Source of the DNA: Ruminococcus sp.
Lineage (GTDB): Bacteria; Bacillota; Clostridia; Oscillospirales; Ruminococcaceae
Direction of reading: 5' to 3'
DNA: 32,000 nucleotides
NCBI GenBank assembly: GCA_017475555.1
Contig: JAFVFL010000044.1
Span: 684-32,683 of the forward strand
Shown here: positions 12,060-31,389 of the stretch, piece by piece
Layout: every line of letters begins with the position of its first letter
How positions within the stretch are numbered: position 1 is the first letter of the stretch
Position numbers and translations under genes: made by a program
The notes under the pieces: model-generated
Seen by the model: the letters and a program-made list of their open reading frames with translations, nothing else
Told to the model about the DNA's origin: nothing
The model's database searches: none

Positions 12060-12270
12060 TCAAAGATCACTCCCTGTAATTCTGATGATTTTACGATACG
12101 GTTCACTTTACAAATTGATTATATATTATTCATAAAATGTTTACAACCTAAAAAATGCAGATTTGGTGGAAAAAATGAAGAAAATATGTTGCACCCTCAG
12201 GTGAAATGTGGTATGATTATTGCAGAGGTATTACGATAATACCTGACTTTACAGAGCGTGGTGGAGCTGT

Positions 12271-14481
12271 ATGAACAAACGTCCATTGATAGGCATTATA
12301 ACTGCTCGTGCCTCAGGGGTGGAGCAGAGACAGATACTCAGCGGCATTCTCTCTCAGGCTGATAAGCTCGGTGCAGCTGTCGGCATTATTTCCAACGTCT
12401 ACAATTTTTCAGAATACTATGCCGATGTTGAGGTGGAGAACAAGATATACGAGCTTATCTCCTCAGAACGCTTTGACGGGTTTATCCTGACTGCTGAATC
12501 CGTGCTGGATCCGGTGCTTCAGAAATATATTATGGATAAGCTGACTGCACGAAGCGTTCCGGTAGTTGTGACAGGAGCAAGGCTTGAGGGCTACCCCTGC
12601 GTAAATAATGATGTGCGGGAGGATCTCCGGGATATTGCCAGACATCTGACCGATGTACACGGCTTTACCGATATCGACATGATAACCGGTCATGAGTATC
12701 TTGATACCTCGCAGGAGCGTGTCAGCGGAGTACGGGATATCCTCAGTGAAAGAGGGATAGAGCTGGGCAGTAATAAGGTCATATACGGCAATTTCTGGAC
12801 AAATTCCGGCGAGGAGCTTGCAGATGAATACATTTCAGGCAAAAGAAGGCTGCCGCAGGCTGTTATATGTGCGAACGACTATATGGCATACGGGCTTATC
12901 GACAGATTTTTCAGTGCGGGTATACGTCCGCCGGCTGATGTGTCGGTGGTCGGCTATGAATATGTAGGTGAACGCTTTTATCACTCCCCGATACTCACGA
13001 CGTATCAGCGGAACCGTGCAGCTGTGGGAGCAAAGGCACTCAGCCTGCTGTACAGTATGATAATGGGTACAGAGCCGGAGGATATACCGCTCAGCGGGTA
13101 CATGGTCTGCGGTGATACCTGTCCGTGCGGTACAGACCGGAGATATATGGGTGCGGAGCTGAATGCAGTCCGCAGGGTGCAGTATTATAATGATCTGAAC
13201 CTCTGCGGAAATTTTGAGCAGCAGACCACCGTCTGCCGCTCGATATATGATTATATAGGTGTATTGCAGGAATTTGCCTATCTGATACGTGATATCAGGG
13301 GAATATATCTGTGTCTGTACGAAAACTGGTGCAGTATCAATGAAAAATCTCAACTGAACAAAGACTCAGGCGATAAAACGATGATATGCTACCGTGTGGT
13401 CAGCCCTGAGGCAGCATCGCCTGAGCCGCATATATTCACCCGGCATATGCTCTTTCCTGAGGAGCTTCCGGGTGCAGGCGAAAAGCAGTATCTCTACTTT
13501 GTGCCGATGTTCTCTGCCGGTATCGAGTTCGGCTATTTTATCTTTCAGTACACCGCCCCGGACGGGTATGATATAATGATGACGGAATGGCTGAAAATAG
13601 CGGTAAACGCATTGATGGTGCTGAGAATGAAGAACGATATAACCACTCTTCTTGAGTGCAGCAGCCTTTCTGAATTTCATGATACAGCCACAGGACTTTA
13701 CAACCGCAGAGGAGTGGTAAGCGAGCTGAAAAATGCACTGAAAAATGCCGCACCGGATTCTGAGCTTGTTATGATAGTCCTCAGGGCGGGGCTGTTTTCT
13801 GATGAGAGCAATATTGACGGAAAGGGGATAGCTGTGAGGATAGATTCCGAAATTGCGGACTGCCTCAAGCGTGTTTCTGTGCAGCGCGGCAGCTTCTGTG
13901 CAAGGCTTGGCGTCAGTCAGTTCGTGTATGCGGCTGTCGGGAGCTTTACCGCAGATCACGCACTGGATATTGCAGACCGCCTGAAAATGCTCATCTGCTA
14001 TTCGCCGCTTTACAGAAAACACAGGGAATCAGGAGCAATAGTCGCTGTTTCGGAGGCTGTCGGTGCAGAGCAGGCAGACCCGGAGGAGCTGCTTTCACGG
14101 CTTTCGGAGAATGTCAGAAAGGAAGCGGGGAGGCTCATGGTGCAGAACAGCCGTAACGGTACCGCAGAGCTCCGGAGTATCCGCAATGCGATGTACAGGC
14201 AGCCGCAGCTTGTCTGGGACTCACAGGAGGTATGCAGCAGATCTCACCTGAGCTACGGGCATTTTCGTGCCTCATACAAGGAATGCTTCGGGATAAGCTT
14301 TCATCAGGATCTTATCCGGAGCAGGATAAGCTATGCGAAATATCTCCTCATGACGACCGCATACAGCTGCTCAGTGATCGCATATAAGTGCGGATATGAG
14401 GATGATAAGTATTTTATGCGGCAGTTCAGGAAGCTGACCGGTACTACTCCGAATACATACCGGAATTTCGGAGCAGGATGA
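12271..14481 (+). CDS. Hybrid transcriptional regulator: LacI/PBP1-type sugar-binding domain, central sensor region, degenerate GGDEF-like domain, C-terminal AraC-type HTH
   Basis: 736 aa. The N-terminus resembles periplasmic-binding-fold regulators (VICANDYMAYGLIDRF..VSVVGYE). The GGDEF-domain entry motif is ATGLYNRRG (aa 473-481), but the GGDEF position reads GVSQF. The AraC signature is at the end (IAYKCGYEDDKYFMRQFRKLTGTTPNTYR). Transcribed divergently from the GH30 gene. Confidence 0.75.
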   Translation: MNKRPLIGIITARASGVEQRQILSGILSQADKLGAAVGIISNVYNFSEYYADVEVENKIYELISSERFDGFILTAESVLDPVLQKYIMDKLTARSVPVVVTGARLEGYPCVNNDVREDLRDIARHLTDVHGFTDIDMITGHEYLDTSQERVSGVRDILSERGIELGSNKVIYGNFWTNSGEELADEYISGKRRLPQAVICANDYMAYGLIDRFFSAGIRPPADVSVVGYEYVGERFYHSPILTTYQRNRAAVGAKALSLLYSMIMGTEPEDIPLSGYMVCGDTCPCGTDRRYMGAELNAVRRVQYYNDLNLCGNFEQQTTVCRSIYDYIGVLQEFAYLIRDIRGIYLCLYENWCSINEKSQLNKDSGDKTMICYRVVSPEAASPEPHIFTRHMLFPEELPGAGEKQYLYFVPMFSAGIEFGYFIFQYTAPDGYDIMMTEWLKIAVNALMVLRMKNDITTLLECSSLSEFHDTATGLYNRRGVVSELKNALKNAAPDSELVMIVLRAGLFSDESNIDGKGIAVRIDSEIADCLKRVSVQRGSFCARLGVSQFVYAAVGSFTADHALDIADRLKMLICYSPLYRKHRESGAIVAVSEAVGAEQADPEELLSRLSENVRKEAGRLMVQNSRNGTAELRSIRNAMYRQPQLVWDSQEVCSRSHLSYGHFRASYKECFGISFHQDLIRSRISYAKYLLMTTAYSCSVIAYKCGYEDDKYFMRQFRKLTGTTPNTYRNFGAG

Positions 14482-14640: not shown

Positions 14641-14716
14641 GGGGCATTAGCGCAGCTGGGAGCGCATCACACTGGCAGTGTGAAGGTCACGGGTTCGAAT
14701 CCCGTATGCTCCACCA
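14641..14716 (+). tRNA. tRNA-Ala (anticodon GGC), CCA encoded
   Basis: A 76-nt cloverleaf. The acceptor stem GGGGCAT/ATGCTCC carries the G3:U70 alanine identity pair. The D arm is GCGC-AGCTGGGA-GCGC and the anticodon arm is TCACA-CTGGCAG-TGTGA. The T arm is ACGGG-TTCGAAT-CCCGT, followed by discriminator A and CCA. Confidence 0.95.
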
Positions 14717-14721
14717 AATTT

Positions 14722-14762
14722 CAGCCCATGTTTCGACGAAAACATGGGCTGTTTTATTTTTA
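14722..14762 (+). terminator. Rho-independent terminator of the tRNA transcript
   Basis: CAGCCCATGTTT-cgacga-AAACATGGGCTG is a 12-bp stem, followed by TTTTATTTTT. Confidence 0.8.
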
Positions 14763-14905: not shown

Positions 14906-16357
14906 TCAAGGCTTCTTATCTTTATGCGGGAGCAGCTTTTCCTCAATGGTGCAGGAGGCGATCTCATCAGCGGACTGGATGGCATGAACATAGATCTTGC
15001 TGGTGGTCGCAATGCTCGAATGTCCTAAGCGGCGGGAGACGGTCGGGATGCTCACACCTTCAGCGATGAGTAGCGTGGCATGGGTGTGACGGAGGGAGTG
15101 CGGTGTGAAGTGCGGGAGACCGTTGCGCTTGACAAACTTGCGCACCCAATCGGTCACGCTGTCGGGGTTCATGGGGGTGGAATCGTCCTTGATGAACAGG
15201 CGGTCATTGGGAACGAGCTGCTGGCTGCCATCCGCAAGCGTGATGAGGATGGTGTCCTGCCAGATCTCCTCTAAATATTGGCGCTGCTGCTGCCAGTGCT
15301 GACGATAGGAACGGAGCTGGTCGAACATCGTCTCGGACAGCTTGATGGTGCGGAATGAGGTGTCGTTCTTCGGGGATTTGGTGATGATGCCCATATGGTC
15401 TACATACTGGCTCGTCCTGCAAATGTGGATGACCTTGTTCTCGAAATCGACATCCTTCCATTCCAGCCCGAGCAGCTCTCCTCTTCGGATGCCGCTGAAC
15501 ATGAAGAGGTACATAATGGTCTTCCACTTGATCGGCTCCTCTTCGAGCAGCTCCAGAACGTGCCTTGCCTGTTCATCGTCGAGGAAGGCAGCCTCCTTGC
15601 GCTCCTGTCGGGGTGCCTTCATATAGTTCTTGTCGGCGATGTTGAACGGGATGAGCCTGTCTCGGGTCGCTTGTGCGAGGATGGAGCTGATGAGCTTGTG
15701 GTGGTGCAGGATGGTCTTGTCAGACAGACCGCCTGTGTCCTGATGAAGCTCGAACAGCTTGTCAACGGGGAGCTGCAGCCCCGCAGCGATCTTCCTGGCG
15801 GATTCAATACTGATGTGTCCGTCAGGCTTGCAGACGGCTCTGATGGTGGAGGGAGAGACACCGCACAGTGAGGCGAACTTACCCTGTGAGAGCCGCTTCT
15901 GCCGTATGATGCCCCCGATCTTGTCTGAAACTGCATAAGCACCCGTTCTCTTGACACCGTTCTCCCGCAGATTGTTGTAGAACATCTGCAAATGGCGGGA
16001 CTGGAGCTTGGCCAGCTTGATTTCCCCGATGGCGGTATTGATGGCTTTGAGCATCGCCTTGTAGCGTTCATAGGTCTTGGGGGCGAGCTGGGGAGGGCGG
16101 TTGCTCTCGAGCCAGCTCACCGCATACTCCCCGAAGCGGGTGTTATTGTCAAAGCAGGAGCCGCTCGTGACCGATTCCTCGAATTTCACGACCTGCTTTT
16201 GCAGCTCCCGCTCGATTTGTTTTGCTGTCATGCCCTCGGGCGGCTTCCACGTCATGGAGTGCTCGACCTGCTTGCCCTTGCTGTCATAGCCATCGTAGGT
16301 GCGGATGTAGTAGGTCACTTTTCCGCTTTTGGATATGTGTTTCTTGACTGTTGCCAT
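14906..16357 (-). CDS. int: Tyrosine site-specific recombinase (integrase) with an N-terminal arm-binding domain and an inserted XRE-type HTH
   Basis: Start is ATG 16357 (MATVKKHISKSGKVTYYIRTYDGYDSKGKQ) with AAAGGAG upstream. The catalytic region reads GIRRGELLGLEW..HSLRHTHATLL..LGHSSIATTSKIYVH. An HTH-like insert IRQKRLSQGKFASLCGVSPSTIRAVC..SARKIAAGLQLPVDKLFEL is also present. Confidence 0.9.
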   Translation of the reverse strand: MATVKKHISKSGKVTYYIRTYDGYDSKGKQVEHSMTWKPPEGMTAKQIERELQKQVVKFEESVTSGSCFDNNTRFGEYAVSWLESNRPPQLAPKTYERYKAMLKAINTAIGEIKLAKLQSRHLQMFYNNLRENGVKRTGAYAVSDKIGGIIRQKRLSQGKFASLCGVSPSTIRAVCKPDGHISIESARKIAAGLQLPVDKLFELHQDTGGLSDKTILHHHKLISSILAQATRDRLIPFNIADKNYMKAPRQERKEAAFLDDEQARHVLELLEEEPIKWKTIMYLFMFSGIRRGELLGLEWKDVDFENKVIHICRTSQYVDHMGIITKSPKNDTSFRTIKLSETMFDQLRSYRQHWQQQRQYLEEIWQDTILITLADGSQQLVPNDRLFIKDDSTPMNPDSVTDWVRKFVKRNGLPHFTPHSLRHTHATLLIAEGVSIPTVSRRLGHSSIATTSKIYVHAIQSADEIASCTIEEKLLPHKDKKP

Positions 16358-16411
16358 GTTGTTCTCCTTTCCTTGGATGGGGGATGCTGGTGAGAGCATC
16401 CCCTCTATGAT

Positions 16412-16672
16412 TTATGCAGAGATCTTGCGGATGCCAGGAACTGGCGCTTCTGCGGATACAGTGGTCATTGGTGTTTCTTCCTCATCGAGAGACAGCGTGT
16501 TGGTGTCGAGGTACTGCATCAGCTTCTCCCAGTTAATAAGGATCTTCTGCCCGACCTTCACACAGGGGATCGCACCGCTTTTGGTAAGCTGTAGCAAGTA
16601 GTTGCGGCTGATGCCGATATTGTGCTCTCTGCACAGCTTGGCGGTCTGGTTGATACTATTCATCTTGTTCAT
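16412..16672 (-). CDS. Excisionase-family/MerR-like HTH DNA-binding protein (Xis candidate)
   Basis: 86 aa with GAGGAGG 8 nt upstream. The HTH pattern is INQTAKLCREHNIGISRNYLLQLTKSGAIPCVKVGQKILINWEKLMQYL. It lies immediately upstream of int. Confidence 0.65.
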   Translation of the reverse strand: MNKMNSINQTAKLCREHNIGISRNYLLQLTKSGAIPCVKVGQKILINWEKLMQYLDTNTLSLDEEETPMTTVSAEAPVPGIRKISA

Positions 16673-16714
16673 AGAGTGAACCTCCTCTCATAGTGATAAT
16701 ATACAATTGACAAA

Positions 16715-18415
16715 TTATGGCGTTTCAGGCTTACGGATATCATACATCGTATGTCCATGTGACAGCGTTTCTGAGATTCCTGCGAATCTAAGAATCTCAT
16801 TGACAGTCTCGATCTGAATATTGGACTTGAGCTCCTTGGGATAGGCACCTGTCTCATTGCAGGCGGCTTTCAGTGCTGTTTTGAGGATACTGAGTTCGTC
16901 GGCACCTCTTTTGCTTGCCTTGAAGTCCTCCCATGCGCTGCAGATGCGGGCATGGCAGTCGGAGGTCTTGTCGTAAGTAATGGACAGTGCCTCGATATGC
17001 GCAGTGTCCTTGCCGTACAATTGCAGGATGTGGCGGAGAAAGGTATGAGGATGTTCAGTCTCCTCCGCTCGGAGCTGCCCAATGAGGTCAAGCTGTCTGC
17101 GAAGCTCATCACGACCGATACGGTTCAGGACAGGCTTCTGGGTAATGGCATCGTAGTAGACATAGGGGTTCGGCTGCGGCAGGTACTGCATCGCAAAGTC
17201 AGGGTTGATTGCGGCTCTGTCGAACTCCTGGAGCTGCATATACAGCTGCCCTGCAATGCTGCCGAGGTGACTTGCAGTGTAGTCAGGGAGCAGGACAATG
17301 ACCTCACGGGGCCTCTTGCGGCTGACTCTTGCTCTGCCGATGACCTGTTGGAGGGTGATGGGGTCGAAGGTTTCGGCAACGATGACGGATAAGCTGTCAT
17401 CATGGAGGGACAGACCGTTCTCCGCGACCTTGGTCGTGACGAGGGCGGCAGTCTCAAATCTGCTGTGCTCGGTGATCTGGTGCAGCTCCGATTTTTTATC
17501 TTCATCGGAATAGATATGCTGGCTGTCTCCGAGCAGCTCCTGTAGCTCTCTGCCCTTCTGGATGTCGTTGATGTAGATGAGTGCCTTCTTTCCGTTCGCG
17601 GCTACGGCATTCAGATAGTCGAGGAACACCGTTCTGTTGTCGGGGTCATAGTTCTTGAATGTCAGGTAGTCCCAGTTTGGCTCCATCAGATAGGTGTGCT
17701 GGATGCGGGTATCATCCTGCACAGGCGTGAATCTCAGGTAGTCCGTGAGGTTATCTGCCGTCAGAGGATAGAGCGCCTTGCCCGATACCGATTCCAGCTC
17801 CCAGAGGGTCGGCAGGACGGCTTCGGGTGTGGCGGTCAGGTAGATGCGAACGGTGTTGTCAAGGTTGCTGTGCAGATAGCGGAGCATTTGCTGCGGATAG
17901 ACAGAGAAGGTCGCATCCTCTGCAAGGCAGTGGCATTCATCGAGGATGAGGACGAGCGCCTTTCCGTGATAGCGGTGACAATGCTTGACGAATTTCTGAT
18001 AGGTCATGACAGTCAGGTTTTCCATGACCGATATGCGACCTATCAGATCCGCAGGAATGTCAGCGGCGCCCGATTTGCGGAGCAGCTCCTGCTTGAGCTG
18101 GGTCTCACAGGCACTGCGGTTTGTCAGGAAAATGACCTGCTTGTGTTTGGCAAGGTCGAGAGCAATTCTCTCGACCGTCCAGGACTTGCCAGCACCTGTC
18201 GGACTGAATACGGCGATGGAGCTGCCCCAGTCCAGCTTGTCGGCATCCTCGGTGGTGAGGATGGCATTGAGGTACTGGTCATGCGCTCCGAGGGTGTAGC
18301 CCGTTGCCAGACTCATCCCCGCAATGAGCGGGGTGAGGTTGGCGGCGGTCAGCTCCTTAGCGGAGGTCTGGGCGGCGTGGTAGTTCATGCCGTCGGGGAT
18401 TACTAGTGGTGCCAT
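16715..18415 (-). CDS. Superfamily-2 DEAD/DEAH-type helicase
   Basis: The real start is ATG 18415 (MAPLVIPDG) with GGAAAGGAGAG upstream; the 48 codons before it overlap the previous gene. The motifs are I SPTGAGKS, II LILDECH, III LTATP and VI QVIGRARV. Confidence 0.8.
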   Translation of the reverse strand: MAPLVIPDGMNYHAAQTSAKELTAANLTPLIAGMSLATGYTLGAHDQYLNAILTTEDADKLDWGSSIAVFSPTGAGKSWTVERIALDLAKHKQVIFLTNRSACETQLKQELLRKSGAADIPADLIGRISVMENLTVMTYQKFVKHCHRYHGKALVLILDECHCLAEDATFSVYPQQMLRYLHSNLDNTVRIYLTATPEAVLPTLWELESVSGKALYPLTADNLTDYLRFTPVQDDTRIQHTYLMEPNWDYLTFKNYDPDNRTVFLDYLNAVAANGKKALIYINDIQKGRELQELLGDSQHIYSDEDKKSELHQITEHSRFETAALVTTKVAENGLSLHDDSLSVIVAETFDPITLQQVIGRARVSRKRPREVIVLLPDYTASHLGSIAGQLYMQLQEFDRAAINPDFAMQYLPQPNPYVYYDAITQKPVLNRIGRDELRRQLDLIGQLRAEETEHPHTFLRHILQLYGKDTAHIEALSITYDKTSDCHARICSAWEDFKASKRGADELSILKTALKAACNETGAYPKELKSNIQIETVNEILRFAGISETLSHGHTMYDIRKPETP

Positions 18416-18432
18416 AAAACATCTCTCCTTTC

Positions 18433-19821
18433 CTATGGCATCAGCAGCTTTACACCCGTAAAGCCGCGCAGGTTGTAGCTGCTTGTGTGTTGTCTCTTGC
18501 TTTGGATCCTGTCTTGGTTCACAAGGCGAAATGCCTGTGAAAAGCCTGTGGTGTCGCAAATACTCGTCTGGTAGTGTGCGGTAAATGCCTCGAACAGCTC
18601 CTGCGAGGTTGTGAATGCACTCTGATCTGTGAAGTCGCAGTAGGTCTGCGAAAAGTCACGGACAGCGTTGTATTCCGTATTGACAGGCGATGTGAGGATC
18701 GTCTGGAGCTGGTCAAAGCGGTCATGTCCCGTGAATTGGTAATTGTTTGCCTTCAGCCGCAGATAATAGCGGAATGCCTCGGTCGCAACGGCATCCTTCT
18801 CACGCAGAAGCTTTTGTAGGATCATCGGATCCTGCTGTTCCTTCGGGATGCTGTACGGATAGGGAATGGTAACGAGTCGGCGCACAAATGCCTGGTCTAC
18901 TGCAGCATACGCCATACCGATGTTATAATTGCTTGCGATGGCGATCTTACATTTGCAGGTGAATTGTACCATTTCCCGATTCTTCCGATCGGCGGTCATA
19001 TCATCAAAGCCCGATGCAGATTTCAGAAAACCGATGCTCTCGGAGCTCAGGTTCACGGCGCCCTCATCCGCAGAATACTCTAAGCGGCAGTGCTGGATGC
19101 GGTGACGCCCGAAACGGCTGGTCATCGTCTTGATCGGCATACTGTCTACGGCTCCAGGGAGGAAGGTGCGCAGGAAGGACAGCTCTGTTGACTTCCCGTT
19201 ATTACCTGTCTCACCAAAGAGCGAGAAGATAGCTTTTGCATGATAATCGGAGGAAAGGACATAGCCCCAAAACTCCCAGTGACGGGCGATCAGCTCGGGG
19301 TCGCCACCCGAGATGATCGCAAGAAATGCATCGGCTGTCGGATGATAGAGCTGCCTATCAGGCAGATAGTTGGCATTGACATAGATCGTAGCAAAATAAT
19401 CGGACGGTATCACCTGTAAGGGCATACCGTTACGATTGGAGATTAGTCCGTTTTTGAAAACGGTATAGTCTTCACTGTCGGGGCCGCAGGGACTCTCACG
19501 AACACGAATCAGCACGGATTCAAGGAGCTGTCTGCAATGATTGGGCTTCAGAATGATGTTCTCTGACAGTGCATACTGATAGGCCAGGTTGCAAAAGCTA
19601 TCCTCATCCAAGGGTCGGTAAACAATACCGTTTAGCATATGCATCACGCCGTCAAATTTGCGGAAAAGCTGCTTATCATAAACGAGTGTGTCGGCAGTAC
19701 GGATGATATACCAGTCGAGCTCCTCTTTTCCCAGAATGCGAAGTGTTTTCTCGCCCTGTGCAAAGGTCGTGCCGTTATCTGTTTCGGGAGCCGCTGGCGA
19801 TTTTTGTAGACTTGTATCCAT
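18433..19821 (-). CDS. P4-family primase C-terminal / D5-type SF3 helicase NTPase; no separate primase catalytic domain seen
   Basis: Start is ATG 19821 (MDTSLQK) with AAGGGAG 8 nt upstream. A D5_N-like region (VFKNGLISNRNG..FLAIISGGDPELIARHWEFWGYVL) is followed by Walker A FGETGNNGKST and a Walker B-like YSADEG. The gene ends in TAG. Confidence 0.8.
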   Translation of the reverse strand: MDTSLQKSPAAPETDNGTTFAQGEKTLRILGKEELDWYIIRTADTLVYDKQLFRKFDGVMHMLNGIVYRPLDEDSFCNLAYQYALSENIILKPNHCRQLLESVLIRVRESPCGPDSEDYTVFKNGLISNRNGMPLQVIPSDYFATIYVNANYLPDRQLYHPTADAFLAIISGGDPELIARHWEFWGYVLSSDYHAKAIFSLFGETGNNGKSTELSFLRTFLPGAVDSMPIKTMTSRFGRHRIQHCRLEYSADEGAVNLSSESIGFLKSASGFDDMTADRKNREMVQFTCKCKIAIASNYNIGMAYAAVDQAFVRRLVTIPYPYSIPKEQQDPMILQKLLREKDAVATEAFRYYLRLKANNYQFTGHDRFDQLQTILTSPVNTEYNAVRDFSQTYCDFTDQSAFTTSQELFEAFTAHYQTSICDTTGFSQAFRLVNQDRIQSKRQHTSSYNLRGFTGVKLLMP

Positions 19822-19843
19822 ATGGTCATCTCCCTTCATATCG

Positions 19844-19872
19844 GGAGGGCAGCTCTGCCTGAGCCGCCCTCC
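19844..19872 (-). terminator. GC-rich hairpin at the boundary between the AT-rich cassette and the primase-type gene
   Basis: Minus strand reads GGAGGGCGGCTC-aggca-GAGCTGCCCTCC. The 12-bp stem has one G.U pair and no clear T run. It begins 11 nt after the stop codon of the 182-aa gene. Confidence 0.45.
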
Positions 19873-19882
19873 GTGTTTGGGG

Positions 19883-20431
19883 TTAGTCTTCGGTGTAAAC
19901 GGGGATGTAAATCAGTTTGACTGAACGTACCTCTATCCAGCGTATATATTGTTCCCAGTAGTATTTCGATGAAGCGTATCGATAATCTCCACCCATCTCA
20001 TATGTGGTTGCTTTGGATGGAAACAAACGGTGATACTCACAGATCAAATTCTTGACTTCATCAGAAGTGTCTGGTTTATCCAATAAAAGATCAAGAATAT
20101 ATGGATCTAAAACCGTTCTTAGTGTTGCTTTGCATAATTTTCTGATTCTTCTAAAAATGATTCCACATTGTTTTGCGCGGTCTTCCTGTTCAACTCTCTC
20201 TGTAAGTGCGCGGTCAAGCTGTTCTAATTCTTCGGGACACTCTTCGAGCGTCCACTTAGAATAGATGCTAACCTTAAAGTAAGAGAGCATACCAGGCTTT
20301 CTGAGGTGGAATTTCAACTCTTCGCCCTTCTTACGAACGAGATAGCCGTCAATTCCATATTCGTTCAGTTTGCTGATCACCTTCTTGTCAGCTGTATTGA
20401 GCTTCTGCTTAGTTTTGTAACAAATGATCAT
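19883..20431 (-). CDS. Hypothetical protein, 182 aa, no recognisable domain
   Basis: ATG 20431 lies 9 nt after AGGAGG; the TTG at 20440 directly abuts the SD. The gene is AT-rich and encodes a Lys/Glu-rich protein (MIICYKTKQKLNTADKKVISKLNEYGIDGYLVRKKGEELKF). Confidence 0.6.
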   Translation of the reverse strand: MIICYKTKQKLNTADKKVISKLNEYGIDGYLVRKKGEELKFHLRKPGMLSYFKVSIYSKWTLEECPEELEQLDRALTERVEQEDRAKQCGIIFRRIRKLCKATLRTVLDPYILDLLLDKPDTSDEVKNLICEYHRLFPSKATTYEMGGDYRYASSKYYWEQYIRWIEVRSVKLIYIPVYTED

Positions 20432-20594
20432 AATAATCAACCTCCTTAGTAATTAAATCATTATTGGGTTAGACAATCTTTAGGACTGTCCATTACAAAG
20501 AGTTTTGTGATTATCGGAAACCCGATAATTCTAAACAAACTAAGGTTTATAGCTCATAAGCTCACCTCCTATTCGATTTTCAAGTTTCATGTGC

Positions 20595-20623
20595 TTGCCA
20601 TTATCAGCATTTTGTGTTATAAT
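20595..20623 (+). promoter_or_regulatory. Near-consensus sigma-A promoter with extended -10, driving the 640-aa gene
   Basis: TTGCCA (20595-20600), a 17-nt spacer, then TGT-TATAAT (-10 at 20618-20623). It leaves a leader of about 180 nt before ATG 20809. Confidence 0.65.
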
Positions 20624-20808
20624 GGACTTTAGGTTCTACTTATCGGAACCTCGTTTTGCAGGTCTTGTTTCTCTGCATCTTTATCATACCACTTTTTTGA
20701 AAATTTGGCGATTTGTAACGGGTTTGCAAAATTGATTTTTCAGTCTTAATTTTTTGAAAAAGCCTTTTTGGCTTGATTCTGCCATTTTGAACGGGAAGGG
20801 AGGAAGCT

Positions 20809-22731
20809 ATGGCTAAGAAAAAACAGGAAAATTCCAAACTTGATCTGTATCGACAGAAGATGAGTGAACTAATCAAGGGGATTTTCGGATACAAGCAGAT
20901 TGATTTTGAGCCTAGGGGAGAGGATACTCCTAAATCAGTGACGATCAAGCTAAGACATAATGATTTGGTTCATTCATTTAGCCAAACAAGAATCCATCAA
21001 AGAAATTTTCGCATTCTGTTTCAGTACACATTTTCTCCACCTGATGGAACAACAGTTGATTTTTGTATTGGCAATCCCAATCTGAAAACTATTGAATATT
21101 CACGACAGGAATATATTCATACGATTCTTATAAACGCAATTCGCTTCTGTGTTGATGAGGAAACGCAGGAGAGTATTTTAAAAAACTATACGTTGCCGCT
21201 CAATAAATATGATGTTACCACACGTTCCATTCTTGATGTCATGGCAAACTATGATTCGATAAATGGTACACCTGTAATTTGTACGGCGGAACAAGTGAAG
21301 GCGTGTCAGGATAAGTTTGGCAATCAAACCCTACCTGCGGATCAGGCAGAAAGTGGTGCAACGCATCATTTTACGGATGAGGAAATCTTTCACGATCATC
21401 CTGAAGCAGAAGAAAGTTATCTTGGGTTAATCGGCAGAGCATTGGTAGACAGAATGCTCCCACTGTTTTTTGATGAAACTTTATCAGATGAGGCTTTTCA
21501 AAAACAGTATACAGAGGTGCTTTCAGACCTTAGTGAGCAGATAAAGGAAAAGCTTATTGAAGATGCAGAACGGATAGCGGTTGAACGCAAGCATAGGGCA
21601 GAGAGCATCAAGAAAATAATTCTTGTCGATCCTGCATATCAGTTTGACCGACCTGATATGCAGGTGCTGTATACCCCAGAGCAGGCTCCTGTTCTGACGG
21701 ATTGGCACGTTCCTGTTCAGCAATATATGAAGTATTGCAAACCAGAAATCAGGCAGGAGGATGTTAAAACATTTCTTTCCTGTTTTGCAAAGGGAAGACC
21801 ATATCCTTTTGCATTGGTTCATCCCGAAGCGCTTGAGCCTGTCATGGAAATGCCGATTTCCGACAGGGGCGTACCGTATCGGCAGGCGATGTTTGATGAC
21901 TTTCAGATAATCCACCTGACACAGGAGTATAACCCACAGTTTACACCATCCCTATTTGAGTACCTTGGTTCGCAGGATGAGTATATCCGTAAAGCAATCG
22001 AGAATATGAACGGTGAACAACTCGATACATACTGGAAATCTGTGTTTGCATCAGTTGAGGATCTTCTCTCCCGTGTATTCCGACATTCTGATGATTTTAC
22101 TGCACTTATTCAGGAAGTGCCACTTTCAAGAAAGGAATATCCTTATCAGGAGGAATACTATCGAAAGCAGGGAAAGGGATATCAGGATTATCTTGCGGAA
22201 TATCTAGATCAAAAAATAGATGGACTTGAAAGCTGGATGGAAGCATTCCATCAGAAGCATCTGTTGGAGCTGGAGGAGAATACTTTTTCAGCTTTTTTGT
22301 CACAGGATCTGATTTATCAACACTACGTTCTTGGGTGGGATGGATTGGCTGAACCGTACAGGGATATGCTTGGTGAAGACTATCTTGCAGGTGATGGAAT
22401 AAAGCAGCTTGCTTATATATGCATTCCACTGATTGGAGAACTTGCATTAGAATTAGAAGAAAATGCTGCCAGTATTGCAGAGGCTGCCAAGGCAAGAATG
22501 TCAGTCAACCAGTTTCAGCATCATCTGTATCTTGTCAAAAAGTATCTGACTGATGTAGGGTTGGATAAAGCAATTCAGCAATGGAACGAGACCTATCAAA
22601 CAGCCAGGAGACGTGGTACAAACTCCATTCATGATTTTCGTGGGCTGCTGTATTATGCACAGCAGAATGGAAATTTGTTCCAAAACTTGAAAGATGCACT
22701 GGAATCTTATGTCGGATATCTTGAAGCATAA
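20809..22731 (+). CDS. Hypothetical protein, 640 aa, acidic, predicted mostly helical, no recognisable domain
   Basis: ATG 20809 with GGGAAGGGAGG upstream. The long open frame lies in an AT-rich block. I could find no NTP-binding, nuclease, HTH or transmembrane motifs by eye. Confidence 0.75.
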   Translation: MAKKKQENSKLDLYRQKMSELIKGIFGYKQIDFEPRGEDTPKSVTIKLRHNDLVHSFSQTRIHQRNFRILFQYTFSPPDGTTVDFCIGNPNLKTIEYSRQEYIHTILINAIRFCVDEETQESILKNYTLPLNKYDVTTRSILDVMANYDSINGTPVICTAEQVKACQDKFGNQTLPADQAESGATHHFTDEEIFHDHPEAEESYLGLIGRALVDRMLPLFFDETLSDEAFQKQYTEVLSDLSEQIKEKLIEDAERIAVERKHRAESIKKIILVDPAYQFDRPDMQVLYTPEQAPVLTDWHVPVQQYMKYCKPEIRQEDVKTFLSCFAKGRPYPFALVHPEALEPVMEMPISDRGVPYRQAMFDDFQIIHLTQEYNPQFTPSLFEYLGSQDEYIRKAIENMNGEQLDTYWKSVFASVEDLLSRVFRHSDDFTALIQEVPLSRKEYPYQEEYYRKQGKGYQDYLAEYLDQKIDGLESWMEAFHQKHLLELEENTFSAFLSQDLIYQHYVLGWDGLAEPYRDMLGEDYLAGDGIKQLAYICIPLIGELALELEENAASIAEAAKARMSVNQFQHHLYLVKKYLTDVGLDKAIQQWNETYQTARRRGTNSIHDFRGLLYYAQQNGNLFQNLKDALESYVGYLEA

Positions 22732-22854
22732 GTTTCTTCTTAAATGGCCATATACCGCAAATTTGTTTTTACCCAAAAATAAATTTTCCCGTCCCTCTCT
22801 ATATAGGAAGAGACAAAAAATAATTTTGAAAGCAGCAGTAGGACAGAAAGCCAT

Positions 22855-22981
22855 TGTACCACGGTTCCACGTCTTAACGAGGTTCGGAGCTGTTTTTGCT
22901 GCAATCCAAAATATGTGCAAACCCTTCCAAGACGCGGAACCGTGGAACATCGCCCCTGACGGCTTTGAGACCGTCAGGGGC
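22855..22981. other. Two adjacent stem-loops between the convergent 640-aa gene and the amidotransferase gene (bidirectional terminator or boundary element)
   Basis: The first stem has 21-nt arms TGTACCACGGTTCCACGTCTT (22855-22875) and AAGACGCGGAACCGTGGAACA (22929-22949), with 2 mismatches and a 53-nt loop. The second is a perfect 10-bp hairpin, CCCCTGACGG-ctttgaga-CCGTCAGGGG (22953-22980). Confidence 0.5.
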
Positions 22982-22989
22982 ATTGTCAT

Positions 22990-23940
22990 TCATATCTCCC
23001 CGCACATCATCGCCTCATGGAACATGAGCGGGTCGAAGAGAAACTCCTCAATTTCGTCATAGGTATACCCCAGATCCAACAGACGGCGCACCTCACCCTC
23101 CGTCACGCCGAAGTAGCCGCAGATGTCAAGCAGCTGTAACACACTGTCCTCCTCGGAGGTGCAGCCAACCTCCTCCCATCCGCAAGAATCATACCTTGTC
23201 CATCTGTAGTGCGGGGTGTACAGCATCGGGCGGAAGGCATCACGGTCGATGCTGCCGTCGGGATGGATGCACAGCAGGTCGCCCTCCTCTGCGTCGATGA
23301 TCTCATAGTGCATCCAGCGGAGTGGGCTGCGTTTCAGTGCTGCGGTCATGATGTCGGGCGTGGAGCTGTACAGGTAGAGCCCCAGCTCGGGAAAATGAAT
23401 GAGATAGAGTGGGTTATCCCCCTTCACAAACCAGAGGTTGTTATCGGCATCCAGCACCGTGAAGGTGAAATTCCCGTTCACTGCCTCTGCCATATTGCGG
23501 AGTGAATCAAAATTCAGCCTGCGCTCTGCCTCGATAAGCTGCACCGCAATATAGCTGTCGGTCTCAATTTTGGTCGAAGGCAGATGCCGCTCACGGCGAA
23601 GGATACTGTCATTATACAGCACGCCATTGTGCGCCAGTGCGAACGCTTTGCCAGCTGTACCTCGGAAGGGATGGTTGTTGTAATTTTGCTTCTCGCTGCC
23701 CTGCGTGGTGAAGCGGGTATGCCCCATCACAGCGCTTGTCCCGTTCGGAATGCGCAGGCGCAGCTTGTGGGCGGGCTTTGGGCGCTTGTAGATGGTCAGC
23801 TGACCTCCCTGATTGTAGGCGATGCCGCAGGCGTGGCTCCCCCTGACCTCGGAGGCATTCGCCAGCGCCTGCAAGAGCTTTTGCAGAATCTTCACAGGGA
23901 GCTTGTGTCCGTAGTCCAGAAATCCAAAAAGTGCGCACAT
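22990..23940 (-). CDS. Class-II (Ntn-type) glutamine amidotransferase domain protein with a C-terminal extension
   Basis: Start is ATG 23940, giving MCALFGF with the catalytic Cys directly after the initiator Met. GAGGAGG lies 10 nt upstream. Other motifs are SHACGIAY, GHTRFTTQG, NNHPF and LAHNGVLYN. The ATG lies 1 nt after the amidoligase TAA. Confidence 0.85.
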   Translation of the reverse strand: MCALFGFLDYGHKLPVKILQKLLQALANASEVRGSHACGIAYNQGGQLTIYKRPKPAHKLRLRIPNGTSAVMGHTRFTTQGSEKQNYNNHPFRGTAGKAFALAHNGVLYNDSILRRERHLPSTKIETDSYIAVQLIEAERRLNFDSLRNMAEAVNGNFTFTVLDADNNLWFVKGDNPLYLIHFPELGLYLYSSTPDIMTAALKRSPLRWMHYEIIDAEEGDLLCIHPDGSIDRDAFRPMLYTPHYRWTRYDSCGWEEVGCTSEEDSVLQLLDICGYFGVTEGEVRRLLDLGYTYDEIEEFLFDPLMFHEAMMCGEI

Positions 23941-23941
23941 A

Positions 23942-25036
23942 TTACATTTCCTCCTCGTTTGTGATGGCTTCGTTGACATAGAGCCGCCGTTCCTTCATGT
24001 ATTGAATCAGCTCGGGCTCCGTGATGCGGCTGACGAATTCCGACCATGACAGTGCCTTCAGATCATACTCGCACAGGCTCATGGCAGTTTGGCAAATATG
24101 CTCCACAAGCTGCAAGGTCGCAAGGAGCGTGTTGAGCTTCAGCGTGCCGCGGAACAGTCTGAATTCGATGGTGGCGCGGTTGCAGAGATTGACAGCGACA
24201 TATCGGTTGTAATCCGATTTTGCCTTGTCATAGAGCTTTTTCGGGTCGTGCTCGTATCCTCTGCGGGCTGCCCAGCGGTTCATGTTGTATTCGGTGCGGC
24301 GGGAGAATTTCAGGAGCTCATTCCAATGCACCTCCACAAAGAACAGGATCTTGCTGATCGTGTCCTCCTGTTCGATTTCACTGTCGCCCAGACCGTCACG
24401 GCTGACATGAATATGCAGACCACAGGTGCCTGTCTGATGGCTGCGGTAGCCCATCTGGACAGCACGGTGCAGGATGTCTGCCCAGCAGAACTCGCTAAGA
24501 TGGTAGTCAAGGCTCATCGGATGTGTGACAATTTCAAAGCCGTCGTCAATACTTCCGTCCGACTTGATGTAGATGTGCTCGGAATTACGGTTGCCGATTT
24601 CGAGCAGCTCCTCAGCGTTGTCGTTGTCGTGACCGCCGTTGTCCACCTCCAGCTCGACACCGAGAAAACGCTTGCCCTGTCCGTACAGAATCGGGGTAGG
24701 CTTGTAGCTGTACTCACGAATGGCGCTGCTGTGCTTTTCGTAGCAGTTAAAGCAGAAATCATAGCCATCGGCATAGTACGAATCATCGTTATGCACGATT
24801 CTGTCACAGTCATAGCAGCGGGTGTAGTGGTCATCGTAGCAGTGCTGGCACAGAAAATGCTCGCTGTCGGATACGGCATTCTCGCTGTAGATGAAAGTCC
24901 CGCAGCGGTCACAGCTGCCGCACTCGTCCTCGTAGCAGCTTGGACATACAACATCATCCTCGACGAGATAATAATCATCGTCGTTCACCTCGCCCCCACA
25001 GCAAGCGCAAACGAGGTTCTCTCTGGTTTCGTCCAT
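23942..25036 (-). CDS. Amidoligase (glutamine-synthetase-like COOH-NH2 ligase, Pfam Amidoligase_2 type) with an N-terminal multi-zinc-ribbon module
   Basis: 364 aa with AAGGAGG upstream. The N-terminal ~100 aa carries seven CxxC pairs (CACC, CPSC, CGSC, CDRC, CQHC, CYDC, CFNC). The core motifs are FLGVELEVD, DGFEIVTHP, TCGLHIHVS and TIEFRLFRGT. Confidence 0.75.
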   Translation of the reverse strand: MDETRENLVCACCGGEVNDDDYYLVEDDVVCPSCYEDECGSCDRCGTFIYSENAVSDSEHFLCQHCYDDHYTRCYDCDRIVHNDDSYYADGYDFCFNCYEKHSSAIREYSYKPTPILYGQGKRFLGVELEVDNGGHDNDNAEELLEIGNRNSEHIYIKSDGSIDDGFEIVTHPMSLDYHLSEFCWADILHRAVQMGYRSHQTGTCGLHIHVSRDGLGDSEIEQEDTISKILFFVEVHWNELLKFSRRTEYNMNRWAARRGYEHDPKKLYDKAKSDYNRYVAVNLCNRATIEFRLFRGTLKLNTLLATLQLVEHICQTAMSLCEYDLKALSWSEFVSRITEPELIQYMKERRLYVNEAITNEEEM

Positions 25037-31213: not shown

Positions 31214-31363
31214 AAAAATCACCTCTATATCTATGATACAGCAGGCACAATCAAATTTACTCAAAGAAAATATGTGATTTCTATTGAAATGTCCAATGAT
31301 ATATGTTATAATATACTTGTGATAGTTGCAGGAGCTTGATACGACAACGATTAGAAAACAAAT

Positions 31364-31389
31364 CCTCCTGTACCAGAGTGTACAGGAGG
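31364..31389 (-). terminator. Hairpin in the XRE/integrase intergenic region; T-rich tail on the minus strand
   Basis: CCTCCTGTAC-cagagt-GTACAGGAGG is a perfect 10-bp stem. The minus strand continues ATTTGTTTTCT. Confidence 0.4.

What the first reader, a model, noticed from the sequence alone, without database searches (positions are those of the whole stretch)
19844..22981. AT-rich, self-promoted two-gene cargo cassette (182 aa + 640 aa, no recognisable domains) interrupting the island backbone
The GC-rich replication module (int, xis, helicase, D5 NTPase) and the GC-rich amidoligase operon are both on the minus strand. A 3.1-kb block of much lower G+C sits between them. My own counts are 18/60 G+C at 20041-20100 and 22/60 at 21181-21240. 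The flanking blocks give 35/60 at 19141-19200 and 38/60 at 24601-24660. The block holds two divergent genes, 19883-20431 (-) and 20809-22731 (+). The second lies behind a near-consensus promoter (TTGCCA-17-TGTTATAAT) and a leader of about 180 nt. By eye I find no Walker, HKD, DEAD, HTH or TM motif in either protein. The block is delimited by strong hairpins at 19844-19872 and 22855-22981. In P4-like satellites, prophages and ICEs, hotspots carry defence or anti-defence cargo as compositionally foreign, independently promoted cassettes within a co-directional backbone. I therefore infer that this pair may be an undescribed conflict system.
Basis: partly seen in the sequence, partly recalled or inferred. 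Interest (0 to 1): 0.72.

Follow-up and report, generated by a model that had tools for sequence, protein, structure and literature searches.

The report
Swappable orphan-gene slot in Ruminococcus island
The AT-rich block is real, but it is two independent modules of a small Ruminococcus genomic island rather than a two-gene system; one module is a single-gene slot, read from a conserved promoter, where related islands carry at least three unrelated proteins of unknown function.

Summary

I compared about 20 related islands from Ruminococcus/Oscillospiraceae metagenomes and genomes. The two genes are not a pair.

- **The 182-aa gene** is the first gene of the leftward operon (small, D5, helicase, xis, int). 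It is optional, can move within the replication module, and occurs with or without the 640-aa gene.
- **The 640-aa gene** is a 2.1-kb exchange cassette (about 20640-22745) in a fixed slot.
- **The slot** lies between a conserved backbone promoter (P_R) and a conserved non-coding element that looks like an ori or oriT.
- **Occupants.** The slot holds at least three unrelated orphan families (b640, b388, b463). All are AT-rich and on the opposite strand to the backbone, and all turn over independently of the backbone.
- **Opposing promoter.** The cassette leader usually carries a leftward promoter-like site (P_L) about 46 bp from P_R. This is the face-to-face geometry of the P2/186 switch.

No homology or fold evidence assigns a function. 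My best guess is a quiescent-state conflict or specificity factor, at 0.45. An immunity-type regulator is the main rival. This is a moderately interesting lead, not a demonstrated defence system.

The parts
18433..19821 (-). D5-like NTPase (DUF5906), a backbone anchor gene. The likely true start is the ATG at 19821, giving 462 aa.
   Evidence: Pfam DUF5906 and PHROG primase-helicase matches. The start is inferred from the upstream GGGAG ribosome-binding site and from NCBI's 462-aa gene call on the same contig. The protein is 44-81% identical in all related islands.
19844..19872 (-). Conserved RNA stem-loop between the small gene and D5.
   Evidence: The arms are 12 nt and 92% complementary. 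Across five islands, 7 of 12 pairs show compensatory changes. 93% of cells are paired, against 33-47% when the partners are slid. G-U pairs form only on the minus (mRNA) strand.
19883..20431 (-). Small basic protein of 182 aa (pI 8.8), with an N-terminal beta-alpha-beta-beta-beta domain, a long helix and a C-terminal extension. It is an optional accessory of the D5 replication module and is not part of the swapped unit.
   Evidence: Only six homologues were found among 5.8 billion clusters. The AF2 model has pLDDT 71.5, and no fold match is significant. A version of 102-181 aa, which shares mainly the N-terminal domain and long helix, lies between D5 and the helicase in L001, L016, L017, L022 and L034. 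The gene is absent from L015, L020, L030, L031 and L038. dN/dS is 0.33-0.59.
20472..20531 (-). Leader of the small gene. It holds a hairpin (GACAATC/GACTGTC, 20472-20490) and a 9-bp palindrome (GATTATCGG-AAAC-CCGATAATC, 20509-20531).
   Evidence: Both are conserved in the window, L003 and L010. In L003 the palindrome shows a compensatory change (ATGATCGG/CCGATCAT). The minus-strand leader folds with z = -2.1.
20540..20572 (-). Five-codon mini-ORF (MSYKP*) behind a strong AGGAGG site. I infer it is a relic of the ancestral D5 ribosome-binding site and start, left when the small-gene module was inserted.
   Evidence: The upstream sequence cttgaaaat.gaataggag followed by ATGAGC is the real D5 start in L015, and L030 and L031 share a similar start (MSNE...). 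The relic is conserved in L003 and L010. The relic interpretation is an inference.
20595..20623 (+). P_R, the backbone promoter that reads into the slot: TTGCCA-17-TG-n-TATAAT.
   Evidence: It matches 11 of 12 positions. The same extended -10 promoter lies next to the D5 or small-gene ribosome-binding site in 12 of the 13 intergenic regions scanned, whichever gene follows it. It is at least 97% identical between L030 (b640 type) and L031 (b463).
20640..22745 (+). The exchange unit: leftward promoter P_L, a 180-nt leader and the 640-aa ORF.
   Evidence: Window versus L001: nucleotide identity is mostly 0.8-1.0 between about 20650 and 22780, with one dip to 0.62-0.70 near 21010-21070. It is 42-56% to the left and 64-78% to the right. 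dS is 0.17 inside the unit, against 0.74-1.65 for the flanking genes. Window versus L003 (b388 island): the flanks are 79-88% identical and the interior is unrelated.
20683..20711 (-). P_L, a predicted leftward promoter (TCGCCA-17-TG-n-TATGAT) for the small, D5, helicase, xis, int operon. It faces P_R, and the inferred transcription starts are about 46 bp apart.
   Evidence: It matches 9 of 12 positions and has the TG extension. A leftward TG-extended site lies 28-67 nt from the P_R -10 in 5 of 9 cassette leaders. The background rate inside the slot genes is 0.017 per 100 nt. In islands without a small gene there is no room for a back-to-back promoter, because only about 20 nt separate the D5 ribosome-binding site from the P_R -35. 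This is a prediction, with no transcript data.
20809..22731 (+). b640: a 640-aa acidic (pI 5.0), soluble protein that is largely helical in a low-confidence model. It has an N-terminal module (about 1-280) and a more conserved C-terminal module (about 284-640). Its function is unknown.
   Evidence: Only 17 relatives were found among 1.84 billion representative proteins. It has no Pfam, PHROG, PADLOC, NCBIfam or PDB-sequence match. The AF2 model is poor (pLDDT 50.8), so the Foldseek search is uninformative. It has no predicted transmembrane segment. NCBI names it 'hypothetical protein' MBR1382405.1.
22735..22989 (.). Conserved non-coding backbone element. It contains a GGCYATATAYCG motif, AT-rich repeats, the palindrome CTCTCTATATAG.AAGAGA, inverted pairs of GTTCC/GGAAC pentamers (22855-22949) around an AT-rich spacer, and a GC hairpin (22952-22981). 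It is a candidate ori or oriT and also a two-way terminator.
   Evidence: It is present downstream of the slot gene in all three cassette types, and in two copies in L010 and L002. The long inverted repeat is nearly invariant and shows no covariation (covariation term +0.64), which points to a DNA site rather than an RNA. The ori/oriT function is inferred.
22990..23940 (-). Class-II glutamine amidotransferase, the backbone anchor on the right. It is followed by the amidoligase at 23942-25036.
   Evidence: Pfam GATase_6/7 and Amidoligase_2. The proteins are 52-90% identical in related islands.

Best explanation
The AT-rich block is two separate modules of a roughly 16.5-kb integrative, self-replicating island. 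The host is a rumen Ruminococcus, and the island lies next to tRNA-Ala.

Module 1 (about 19822-20553) is the 182-aa gene with its own ribosome-binding site, leader hairpins and a trailing RNA stem-loop. It was inserted between the ancestral D5 ribosome-binding site and D5. It is an optional small protein tied to the D5/helicase replication module.

Module 2 (about 20640-22745) is a single-gene exchange cassette made of P_L, a leader and the 640-aa ORF. It occupies a fixed slot between the backbone promoter P_R and a conserved ori/oriT-like element.

Shown:
- The slot holds at least three unrelated, fast-evolving orphan proteins in related islands.
- Cassettes are replaced on near-identical backbones and shared between diverged ones.
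- Homology ends just after the P_R -10 on one side and at the GGCYATATAYCG motif on the other.

Inferred:
- Exchange is by homologous recombination in these conserved flanks.
- P_R is the promoter active in the quiescent state. It fires head-on into the cassette-borne P_L about 46 bp away.
- Expression of the slot gene and of the replication/excision operon is therefore mutually exclusive, as in the P2/186 switch.
- The protein is a conflict or specificity factor expressed in the resting island. It may exclude phages or rival elements, or recognise a helper or inducing signal. It is not a portable defence system or a core enzyme.
For: Slot census. The b640 family fills the slot in the window, L001, L002, L010, L015, L030, L035, L037 and L038. 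It also lies divergent from a D5-type gene in the more distant element L039. The b388 family fills it in L003, L016, L017, L019, L020, L021, L023, L024 and L033. The b463 protein fills it in L031. L037 carries an extra Zn-ribbon gene in the slot.

The families are unrelated. hhalign probabilities are 0.2% or less.

Turnover is decoupled from the backbone.
- Window versus L003: D5 is 81% identical but the slot family differs.
- Window versus L001: D5 is 58% identical but b640 is 89%, with dS 0.17 against 0.74-1.65 in the flanks.
- L030 versus L031: D5 is 98.3% identical at the nucleotide level but the slot families differ.

Other points.
- The slot gene has lower GC3 than the backbone in every island with mapped flanking genes except L039, whatever the overall G+C.
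- P_R is conserved and P_L-like sites are enriched in the cassette leaders.
- dN/dS is higher than in the backbone: 0.29 against 0.06-0.19.
- b640 diverges much faster than D5. For example, between L002 and L037 D5 is 86% identical and b640 is 40%.
- Disrupted alleles exist (L028, L017, L021), so the gene can be lost.
Against: - There is no functional evidence at all. None of the three slot families shows a nuclease, NTPase, protease, TIR/SIR2 or membrane module, or any PADLOC match.
- No known defence system was seen in the slot in about 20 islands, whereas P4/P2 hotspots often carry recognisable ones.
- The slot was never found empty.
- The b640 family was found only beside D5-type genes, even at 17-20% identity (L039). 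That suggests a function tied to the island's own life cycle.
- P_L is part of the swapped unit. That is what an immunity module (a regulator with its target promoter) would look like.
- P_L and both transcription starts are predictions only.
- The census comes from few, mostly short metagenomic contigs.
Confidence: 0.45

Rival explanations
1. Immunity-type module. The slot protein is the island's own maintenance regulator, analogous to the CI/C repressor of P2-like phages or to Stl of SaPIs. It acts on the cassette-borne P_L, and the three families are alternative immunity or induction types.
For: - The gene lies where the immunity gene lies in a face-to-face switch (PMC7498355).
- The swapped unit includes P_L, so regulator and target promoter would travel together.
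- The slot was never empty.
- The b640 family was seen only beside D5-type genes.
- Most leaders contain two-copy direct repeats. In the window one copy overlaps the P_L -35.
Against: - No HTH or other DNA-binding domain is detected in any of the three families.
- The proteins are large, at 330-750 aa. b640 and b463 are acidic (pI 5.0-5.5), although the b388 proteins are not (pI 7.6-8.6).
- Frameshifted or split alleles persist in three islands.
- The window's leader repeats were not detected in L001, which carries the same cassette. Two-copy repeats are often chance.
Confidence: 0.25
2. Generic portable defence or anti-defence cargo, as the first reader proposed but as a single gene. It would be an undescribed anti-phage or anti-restriction effector that happens to sit in this hotspot.
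For: - The locus meets the structural definition of a hotspot: a small locus with high turnover between conserved genes (PMC9122126).
- The gene is AT-rich, is read from a strong promoter and evolves fast.
- The acidic protein would suit a decoy or anti-restriction role.
- The island also carries an orphan Dam methylase.
Against: - The families were not found in phages. Every contig that yielded a b640 context belongs to this island family or to a more distant D5-linked element (L039).
- There are no PADLOC matches and no known defence domains. No known system was ever seen in the slot.
- Only three families were seen in about 20 islands.
Confidence: 0.15
3. Core replication or transfer function. 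The slot protein would be the missing primase, initiator or loader for the D5 helicase, or a relaxosome factor acting on the adjacent ori/oriT-like element.
For: - The D5 protein (462 aa) matches only the helicase part of primase-helicase families.
- The slot gene always neighbours D5 and the ori/oriT-like element.
- In L039 the gene on the far side is a MobA/VirD2 relaxase with a NikA-like protein.
- One acidic residue, D274, at the end of a hydrophobic stretch that is a beta-strand in the low-confidence model, is nearly invariant.
Against: - Three unrelated families would all have to serve the same conserved non-coding element. That element does not co-vary with cassette type.
- The gene is on the opposite strand with its own promoter, facing the replication operon.
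- dN/dS is relaxed and disrupted alleles exist.
- No AEP, Toprim, Rep or relaxase signature is detected.
Confidence: 0.08

Closest known systems
Diversity hotspots of P4-like satellites and P2-like phages (Rousset et al. 2022, PMC9122126)
   Same: A small locus (1-5 kb) with high turnover lies between two conserved genes of an integrative element. The occupants are often orphans, and the element is replicative and carries a D5/alpha-type helicase.
   Different: Here the slot holds one gene, or two in a single island. The gene is read from a conserved backbone promoter, and each cassette brings the opposing promoter of the replication operon. Only three island-restricted families were seen, none with a known defence domain. 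No protection has been shown.
Face-to-face lytic/lysogenic switch of coliphage 186 and P2 (PMC7498355)
   Same: Two promoters face each other 40-60 bp apart. One drives a maintenance-state gene and the other drives an operon that includes replication and excision functions. A small protein is the first gene of that operon in some islands.
   Different: The gene at the immunity position is 330-750 aa with no HTH. The integrase is on the replication side, not the maintenance side. The promoters are predicted, not mapped. No operators have been identified.
Stl master repressors of SaPIs/PICIs (from my own knowledge of that literature)
   Same: A variable, element-specific gene is transcribed divergently from the xis/replication operon of a small integrative replicative island. 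Different islands carry different alleles.
   Different: Stl proteins are about 250 aa with an N-terminal HTH and lie next to int. No HTH is found here, no helper phage is known, and the element has no packaging genes in view.
Lysogenic-conversion or exclusion genes co-transcribed with immunity genes, such as lambda rexAB and P2 old/tin (from my own knowledge)
   Same: A gene expressed from the quiescent-state promoter of an integrated element, and dispensable for the element itself.
   Different: Those proteins have known activities and phenotypes, which these lack. Here no separate immunity gene is visible in the same transcript.

Membership tests
Defence hotspot of a satellite or prophage (as defined in PMC9122126) | [quoted passage not shown] | tested here: met
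   The unit is 2.1 kb and lies between D5 (or small gene plus D5) and the GATase or its equivalent. It is bounded by the conserved P_R and the conserved non-coding element.
Defence hotspot of a satellite or prophage (as defined in PMC9122126) | High turnover of unrelated gene content, decoupled from the backbone | tested here: met
   Three unrelated families occupy the slot. L030 and L031 have D5 genes 98.3% identical but different occupants. For the window versus L001, dS is 0.17 inside the cassette and 0.74-1.65 in the flanks.
Defence hotspot of a satellite or prophage (as defined in PMC9122126) | Some occupants are recognisable defence systems or carry defence-type domains | tested here: not met
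   No PADLOC, Pfam or NCBIfam match for b640, b388 or b463. No known system was seen in the slot in about 20 islands.
Defence hotspot of a satellite or prophage (as defined in PMC9122126) | Occupants protect against phage when expressed | not testable with these tools
   This needs cloning and phage challenge.
Two-gene conflict system (toxin-antitoxin or sensor-effector pair) | The two genes co-occur and are inherited as a unit | tested here: not met
   The small gene occurs with b388 (L003). b640 occurs without a small gene (L015, L030, L038). The small gene is relocated in L001. The high-identity block between the window and L001 excludes the small gene.
P2/186-type face-to-face switch with an immunity repressor | Opposed promoters 40-60 bp apart between a maintenance gene and a lytic or replication operon | tested here: inconclusive
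   Sequence predictions fit. P_R is at 20595-20623 and P_L at 20711-20683, with starts about 46 bp apart. P_L-like sites are enriched in 5 of 9 leaders. There are no transcript data.
P2/186-type face-to-face switch with an immunity repressor | The maintenance gene encodes a DNA-binding (HTH) repressor with operators over the opposing promoter | tested here: not met
   No HTH or other DNA-binding domain in any slot family. Only weak two-copy repeats occur near P_L.
PICI/SaPI-type phage satellite | int, xis and a replication module with ori on a roughly 10-20 kb island | tested here: met
   The island carries int, an HTH_17 xis, an SF2 helicase, D5 and an ori-like element. It spans roughly 14.75 to 31.5 kb of the window, about 16.5 kb.
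PICI/SaPI-type phage satellite | Packaging or capsid-hijack genes (terS, cpm, cos/pac) and a helper phage | tested here: not met
   No such genes were found among the island ORFs scanned. A distant relative instead carries a MobA/VirD2 relaxase with a NikA-like protein, which suggests mobilisation by conjugation. Helper dependence cannot be tested here.
Integron-type gene cassette | attC-like recombination site on each cassette and a dedicated integron integrase with attI | tested here: inconclusive
   Breakpoints fall where flank homology ends (after the P_R -10, and at the GGCYATATAYCG motif), which homologous recombination explains. No repeated attC-like hairpin travels with the cassettes. 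The integrase matches the phage-integrase family. I did not test for site-specific exchange.

The most novel reading that the evidence does not exclude
This undescribed family of Ruminococcaceae replicative islands may carry a dedicated expression slot wired into a face-to-face promoter switch. Its interchangeable occupants (b640, b388, b463) would be three new, domain-less classes of conflict protein made only while the island is dormant. They might be anti-phage or anti-island exclusion factors, or helper or inducer sensors that couple recognition of an invader to release of the replication/excision operon.
Probability: 0.3. Interest if true: 0.7.

Novelty: new variant of a known kind. Interest (0 to 1): 0.5.

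Why it matters
Variable slots between conserved anchor genes have been a productive route to new anti-phage systems, but almost all of that work is in Proteobacteria. This is a clean, sharply bounded slot in gut and rumen Clostridia, and it has three occupant families with no detectable relatives.

If the occupants act in conflicts, they are new effector or sensor types. If they are regulators, they are a new kind of immunity module without an HTH.

The slot is also wired in an unusual way, with a backbone promoter facing a cassette-borne promoter. That would couple cargo expression to the island's dormancy and gives a simple testable model.

One relative sits in a cultured strain with a complete genome, Ruminococcus callidus ATCC 27760 (NZ_CP186925, L020), which makes experiments possible.

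Tried and rejected
1. Structure route. AF2 on six-sequence alignments gave pLDDT 50.8 for b640 and 71.5 for the 182-aa protein. Foldseek against PDB and BFVD gave nothing below E = 0.03, and the top hits were designed helical proteins. A better alignment was therefore available too late.

2. Profile searches. A 15-member b640 profile against PDB sequences, Pfam, PHROGs, PADLOC and NCBIfam gave only noise. The same held for b388, b463 and the small-protein variants.

3. Shared-domain idea. I thought b640, b388, b463 and the small protein might share an N-terminal beta-hairpin domain. hhalign probabilities of 0.2% or less rejected this.

4. RNA element in the b640 leader. Rfam found nothing and the fold z-score was -0.77.

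5. The long inverted repeat downstream as an RNA. It showed no covariation.

6. attR search. No direct repeat of 12 nt or more from the tRNA/int flank occurs elsewhere in the window.

7. L014 as an independent, phage-like context for the b640 C-terminal half. It turned out to be a 5'-truncated remnant in the same island family, with the same downstream element.

8. Searches in other collections. tblastn of both proteins against 50,697 phage records gave no match. IMG/VR gave only two R. callidus-type islands. A b640-profile scan of viral contigs failed because no stretch was conserved enough.

9. Literature. I found no description of this island family.

Full report
**1. The observation**

- All four G+C counts are exact.
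- The block 19844-22981 is 40.9% G+C, with 53.6% on both sides. It is the lowest 3.1-kb window in the 32 kb.
- The contrast is sharper at third codon positions. GC3 is 0.43 for the 182-aa gene and 0.37 for the 640-aa gene. It is 0.60-0.76 for int, helicase, D5, GATase and amidoligase, and 0.55-0.62 for the host genes on the left.
- The island backbone is therefore more GC-rich than the host, and the block less so. The island's right part (25.6-32 kb) is also fairly AT-rich, at 42.7%.
- The ORFs, the promoter TTGCCA-17-TG-n-TATAAT at 20595-20623 (11 of 12), the 180-nt leader and the hairpins are all present.
- Neither protein matches Pfam, PHROGs, PADLOC or NCBIfam.

**2. Where the window comes from**

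- The 182-aa protein is identical to a 'hypothetical protein' of a rumen Ruminococcus sp. MAG (GCA_017484345.1; MBR1382404.1). The 640-aa protein is MBR1382405.1.
- The island starts next to tRNA-Ala(GGC) at 14641-14716.
- Its gene order is: int, HTH_17 xis, SF2 helicase, D5/DUF5906, 182-aa gene, 640-aa gene, GATase, Zn-ribbon amidoligase, DUF960, an 87-aa gene, a 754-aa DEAD-like protein, Dam methylase, two HTH_17 genes and a 232-aa gene. An XRE gene and a second integrase follow.
- It has no capsid, packaging or conjugation genes.

**3. Both proteins are very rare**

- A word-indexed search of 5.8 billion clusters found 5 relatives of the 640-aa protein and 6 of the 182-aa protein.
- A profile search with the b640 alignment added only two short b640 fragments.
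- A full HMMER profile scan of 1.84 billion representatives found 17 relatives of b640.
- AlphaFold2 on the shallow alignments gave pLDDT 50.8 (b640) and 71.5 (small protein). Foldseek against PDB and BFVD returned nothing significant.
- A 15-member b640 profile hit nothing in the PDB sequences, Pfam or PHROGs.
- Homology therefore gives no function.

**4. Comparative anatomy decides the question**

I recovered about 20 related islands through the proteins' encoding contigs and through D5-profile scans of genome, viral and metagenome collections. I mapped their ORFs against a panel of the window's proteins.

The space between D5 and the GATase (or its equivalent) always holds one large gene on the opposite strand. 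That gene belongs to one of three families.

| Family | Size | Islands |
|---|---|---|
| b640 | 575-750 aa | window, L001, L002, L010, L015, L030, L035, L037, L038, L039 |
| b388 | 327-430 aa | L003, L016, L017, L019, L020, L021, L023, L024, L033 |
| b463 | 463 aa | L031 |

L039 is a more distant element whose far-side neighbour is a relaxase rather than the GATase.

- Profile-profile comparison finds no relationship among the three families. Probabilities are 0.2% or less.
- None of the three matches any family library.
- L037 carries an extra Zn-ribbon gene in the slot.
- In L022 the 417-aa ORF just upstream of D5 aligns with none of the slot families. From its sequence I judge it an IS110-type transposase, a reading I did not test.
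- The slot gene has lower GC3 than its backbone in every island with mapped flanking genes except L039, whether the element is 36% or 49% G+C overall.

**5. Turnover is decoupled from the backbone**

- Window versus L003: D5, helicase, GATase and amidoligase are 81-89% identical, yet the slot families differ.
- Window versus L001: D5 is only 58% identical but b640 is 89%. Synonymous divergence is 0.17 in b640, against 0.74 in the helicase and 1.65 in the GATase.
- Nucleotide identity between the window and L001 is mostly 0.8-1.0 between about 20650 and 22780, with one dip to 0.62-0.70 near 21010-21070. Outside that span it is 42-56% to the left and 64-78% to the right.
- L030 versus L031: the D5 genes are 98.3% identical, and the promoter region is at least 97% identical for about 85 nt. 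Identity then collapses, into a b640-type gene in one and b463 in the other.
- Both of those islands share the same downstream non-coding sequence, which starts at a GGCTATATA(G/T)CG motif.
- The exchange unit is thus sharply bounded. It starts just after the P_R -10 and ends about 15 nt after the stop codon. In the window this is about 20640-22745.

**6. The 182-aa gene is not in that unit**

- It is on the backbone strand, 61 nt from the D5 start, and is the first gene of the leftward operon.
- Its homologues occur with b388 (L003).
- In other islands a version of 102-181 aa, which shares mainly the N-terminal domain and long helix, lies between D5 and the helicase (L001, L016, L017, L022, L034).
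- It is absent from L015, L020, L030, L031 and L038.
- Upstream of it, the window keeps cttgaaaat.gaataggag followed by ATG-AGC and then a stop after five codons. In L015 this is the real D5 start, and L030 and L031 share a similar one. I read this as a relic showing that the small-gene module was inserted into the 5' end of the D5 operon. This is an inference.
Seven of its 12 pairs show compensatory changes across five islands. 93% of cells are paired, against 33-47% in slid controls. G-U pairs form only on the mRNA strand.

**7. The promoter and the right-hand hairpins belong to the backbone**

- The extended -10 promoter next to the D5 or small-gene ribosome-binding site is found in 12 of the 13 intergenic regions scanned, whichever gene follows.
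- The 255-nt stretch 22735-22989 is a conserved non-coding element found downstream of all three cassette types, sometimes in two copies.
- Its long inverted repeat is made of paired GTTCC/GGAAC pentamers around an AT-rich spacer. It is nearly invariant and shows no covariation, so it looks like a protein-binding DNA site rather than an RNA.
- I infer an ori or oriT. A distant relative (L039) has a MobA/VirD2 relaxase and a NikA-like gene beyond its b640-like gene.

**8. A switch-like geometry**

- In islands without a small gene, only about 20 nt separate the D5 ribosome-binding site from the P_R -35. The promoter of the D5 operon must therefore lie beyond P_R, facing it.
- The window has such a site: TCGCCA-17-TG-n-TATGAT on the minus strand at 20711-20683. 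The inferred starts are about 46 bp apart.
- Leftward TG-extended sites lie 28-67 nt from the P_R -10 in 5 of 9 cassette leaders. Inside the slot genes the rate is 0.017 per 100 nt.
- This is the arrangement of P2-like phages. Their lytic and lysogenic promoters face each other 40-60 bp apart, and pR interferes with pL (PMC7498355).
- I therefore infer that the slot gene is the quiescent-state transcript, and that it opposes the replication/excision operon in cis. No transcript data exist.

**9. What the protein does**

The properties of b640:
- It is soluble and acidic (pI 5.0), largely helical in the low-confidence model, with no predicted membrane segment.
- Its C-terminal half is the more conserved.
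- It is under purifying but relaxed selection, with dN/dS 0.29 against 0.06-0.19 in the backbone.
- It diverges far faster than D5.
- Split or frameshifted alleles exist in L028, L017 and L021.

These features, together with the turnover, favour an accessory conflict or specificity factor. I hold this at 0.45.

Against a portable defence gene:
- The b640 family was seen only in this slot, always beside a D5-type gene, even at 17-20% identity.
- No known defence system ever appears in the slot.

For the main rival, an immunity-type regulator (0.25):
- The gene's position in the switch fits.
- P_L travels with the gene.

Against that rival:
- No slot family has a DNA-binding domain.
- The proteins are large, and b640 and b463 are acidic.
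- Disrupted alleles persist.

A core replication or transfer role (0.08) is unlikely. Three unrelated families would have to serve the same conserved non-coding element.

**10. Verdict**

The slot is variable and independently expressed. However, it is a single-gene slot, not a two-gene system. Its promoter and its 'delimiting' hairpins are backbone features. A conflict role is plausible but untested.
- Relative to known systems, this is a new variant of the hotspot theme, in a family of islands that I could not find described.

Noticed in passing
window 22735-22989: A 255-nt non-coding element is conserved downstream of the slot gene in all island types, and is present in two copies in L010 and L002. 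It contains a GGCYATATAYCG motif, AT-rich repeats, a TATATA-centred palindrome, paired GTTCC/GGAAC pentamers in inverted orientation and a GC hairpin. The inverted repeat is nearly invariant and shows no covariation. It is a candidate ori or oriT.
   Followed up: partly
window 19844-19872 (minus strand): An RNA stem-loop between the 182-aa gene and D5 shows compensatory changes in 7 of 12 pairs across five islands. It has no U-tract after it. It could be a processing, stabilising or attenuating element within the operon.
   Followed up: yes
window 20509-20531 and 20639-20653: The 9-bp palindrome GATTATCGG-AAAC-CCGATAATC shows a compensatory change in L003. A related half-site, TTATCGGAAC, lies just downstream of the P_R start. 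CGGAAC/TGGAAC also occurs at the equivalent position in L001, L015, L030 and L031, and it resembles the pentamers of the downstream element. One backbone DNA-binding protein may recognise both ends of the slot.
   Followed up: no
window 20540-20572 (minus strand): A five-codon mini-ORF (MSYKP*) sits behind a strong AGGAGG site. It matches the real D5 ribosome-binding site and start of islands that lack the small gene, so it looks like a relic of an insertion.
   Followed up: partly
window 30905-31713 and beyond the window (L025:10742-17558): To the right of the island lie an XRE-type HTH gene, a second tyrosine integrase (357 aa), a beta-helix protein, a dynamin-like GTPase (682 aa) and an AAA_35 ATPase (501 aa). 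This may be a second integrated element or a defence-type cluster abutting the island.
   Followed up: no
window 14641-14716 and 14724-14752: tRNA-Ala(GGC) with its terminator hairpin lies 190 nt from the integrase stop and is the probable integration site. No direct repeat of 12 nt or more from this flank recurs in the window, so attR was not located.
   Followed up: partly
window 14906-19821 and 22990-25036: The island backbone genes have GC3 of 0.60-0.76, which is higher than the flanking host genes (0.55-0.62). The backbone itself is therefore compositionally foreign, in the opposite direction to the slot.
   Followed up: no
window 23942-25036: The amidoligase has an N-terminal array of CxxC zinc-ribbon motifs and matches PHROG 16683 (unknown function) at E = 6e-96. 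It is paired with a class-II GATase and DUF960. This module is absent from L031 and is replaced by a relaxase plus a NikA-like gene in L039.
   Followed up: partly
L028:634-2552 (same island, another sample): This b640 allele has a 1-nt deletion in an A5 run, equivalent to window position 21500, which splits the gene into 244-aa and 403-aa ORFs. It also has a 3-nt deletion. The b388 gene is likewise split in L017 and L021. These are either real pseudogenes or assembly errors.
   Followed up: partly
L022:1099-2352: A 417-aa ORF lies on the opposite strand immediately upstream of D5, where the slot gene would be. It aligns with none of the slot families. From its sequence I judge it an IS110-type transposase, but I did not test this.
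   Followed up: no
L037:4334-4825: An extra 163-aa Zn-ribbon gene (GC3 0.24) follows the b640-type gene inside the slot. The slot can therefore hold more than one gene.
   Followed up: no
window 9126-14481: The host genes to the left of the island are a 977-aa GH30/CBM/dockerin/esterase protein (cellulosome-type) and a 736-aa protein that combines a periplasmic-binding domain with an AraC domain. Both are consistent with a fibre-degrading rumen Ruminococcus.
   Followed up: no
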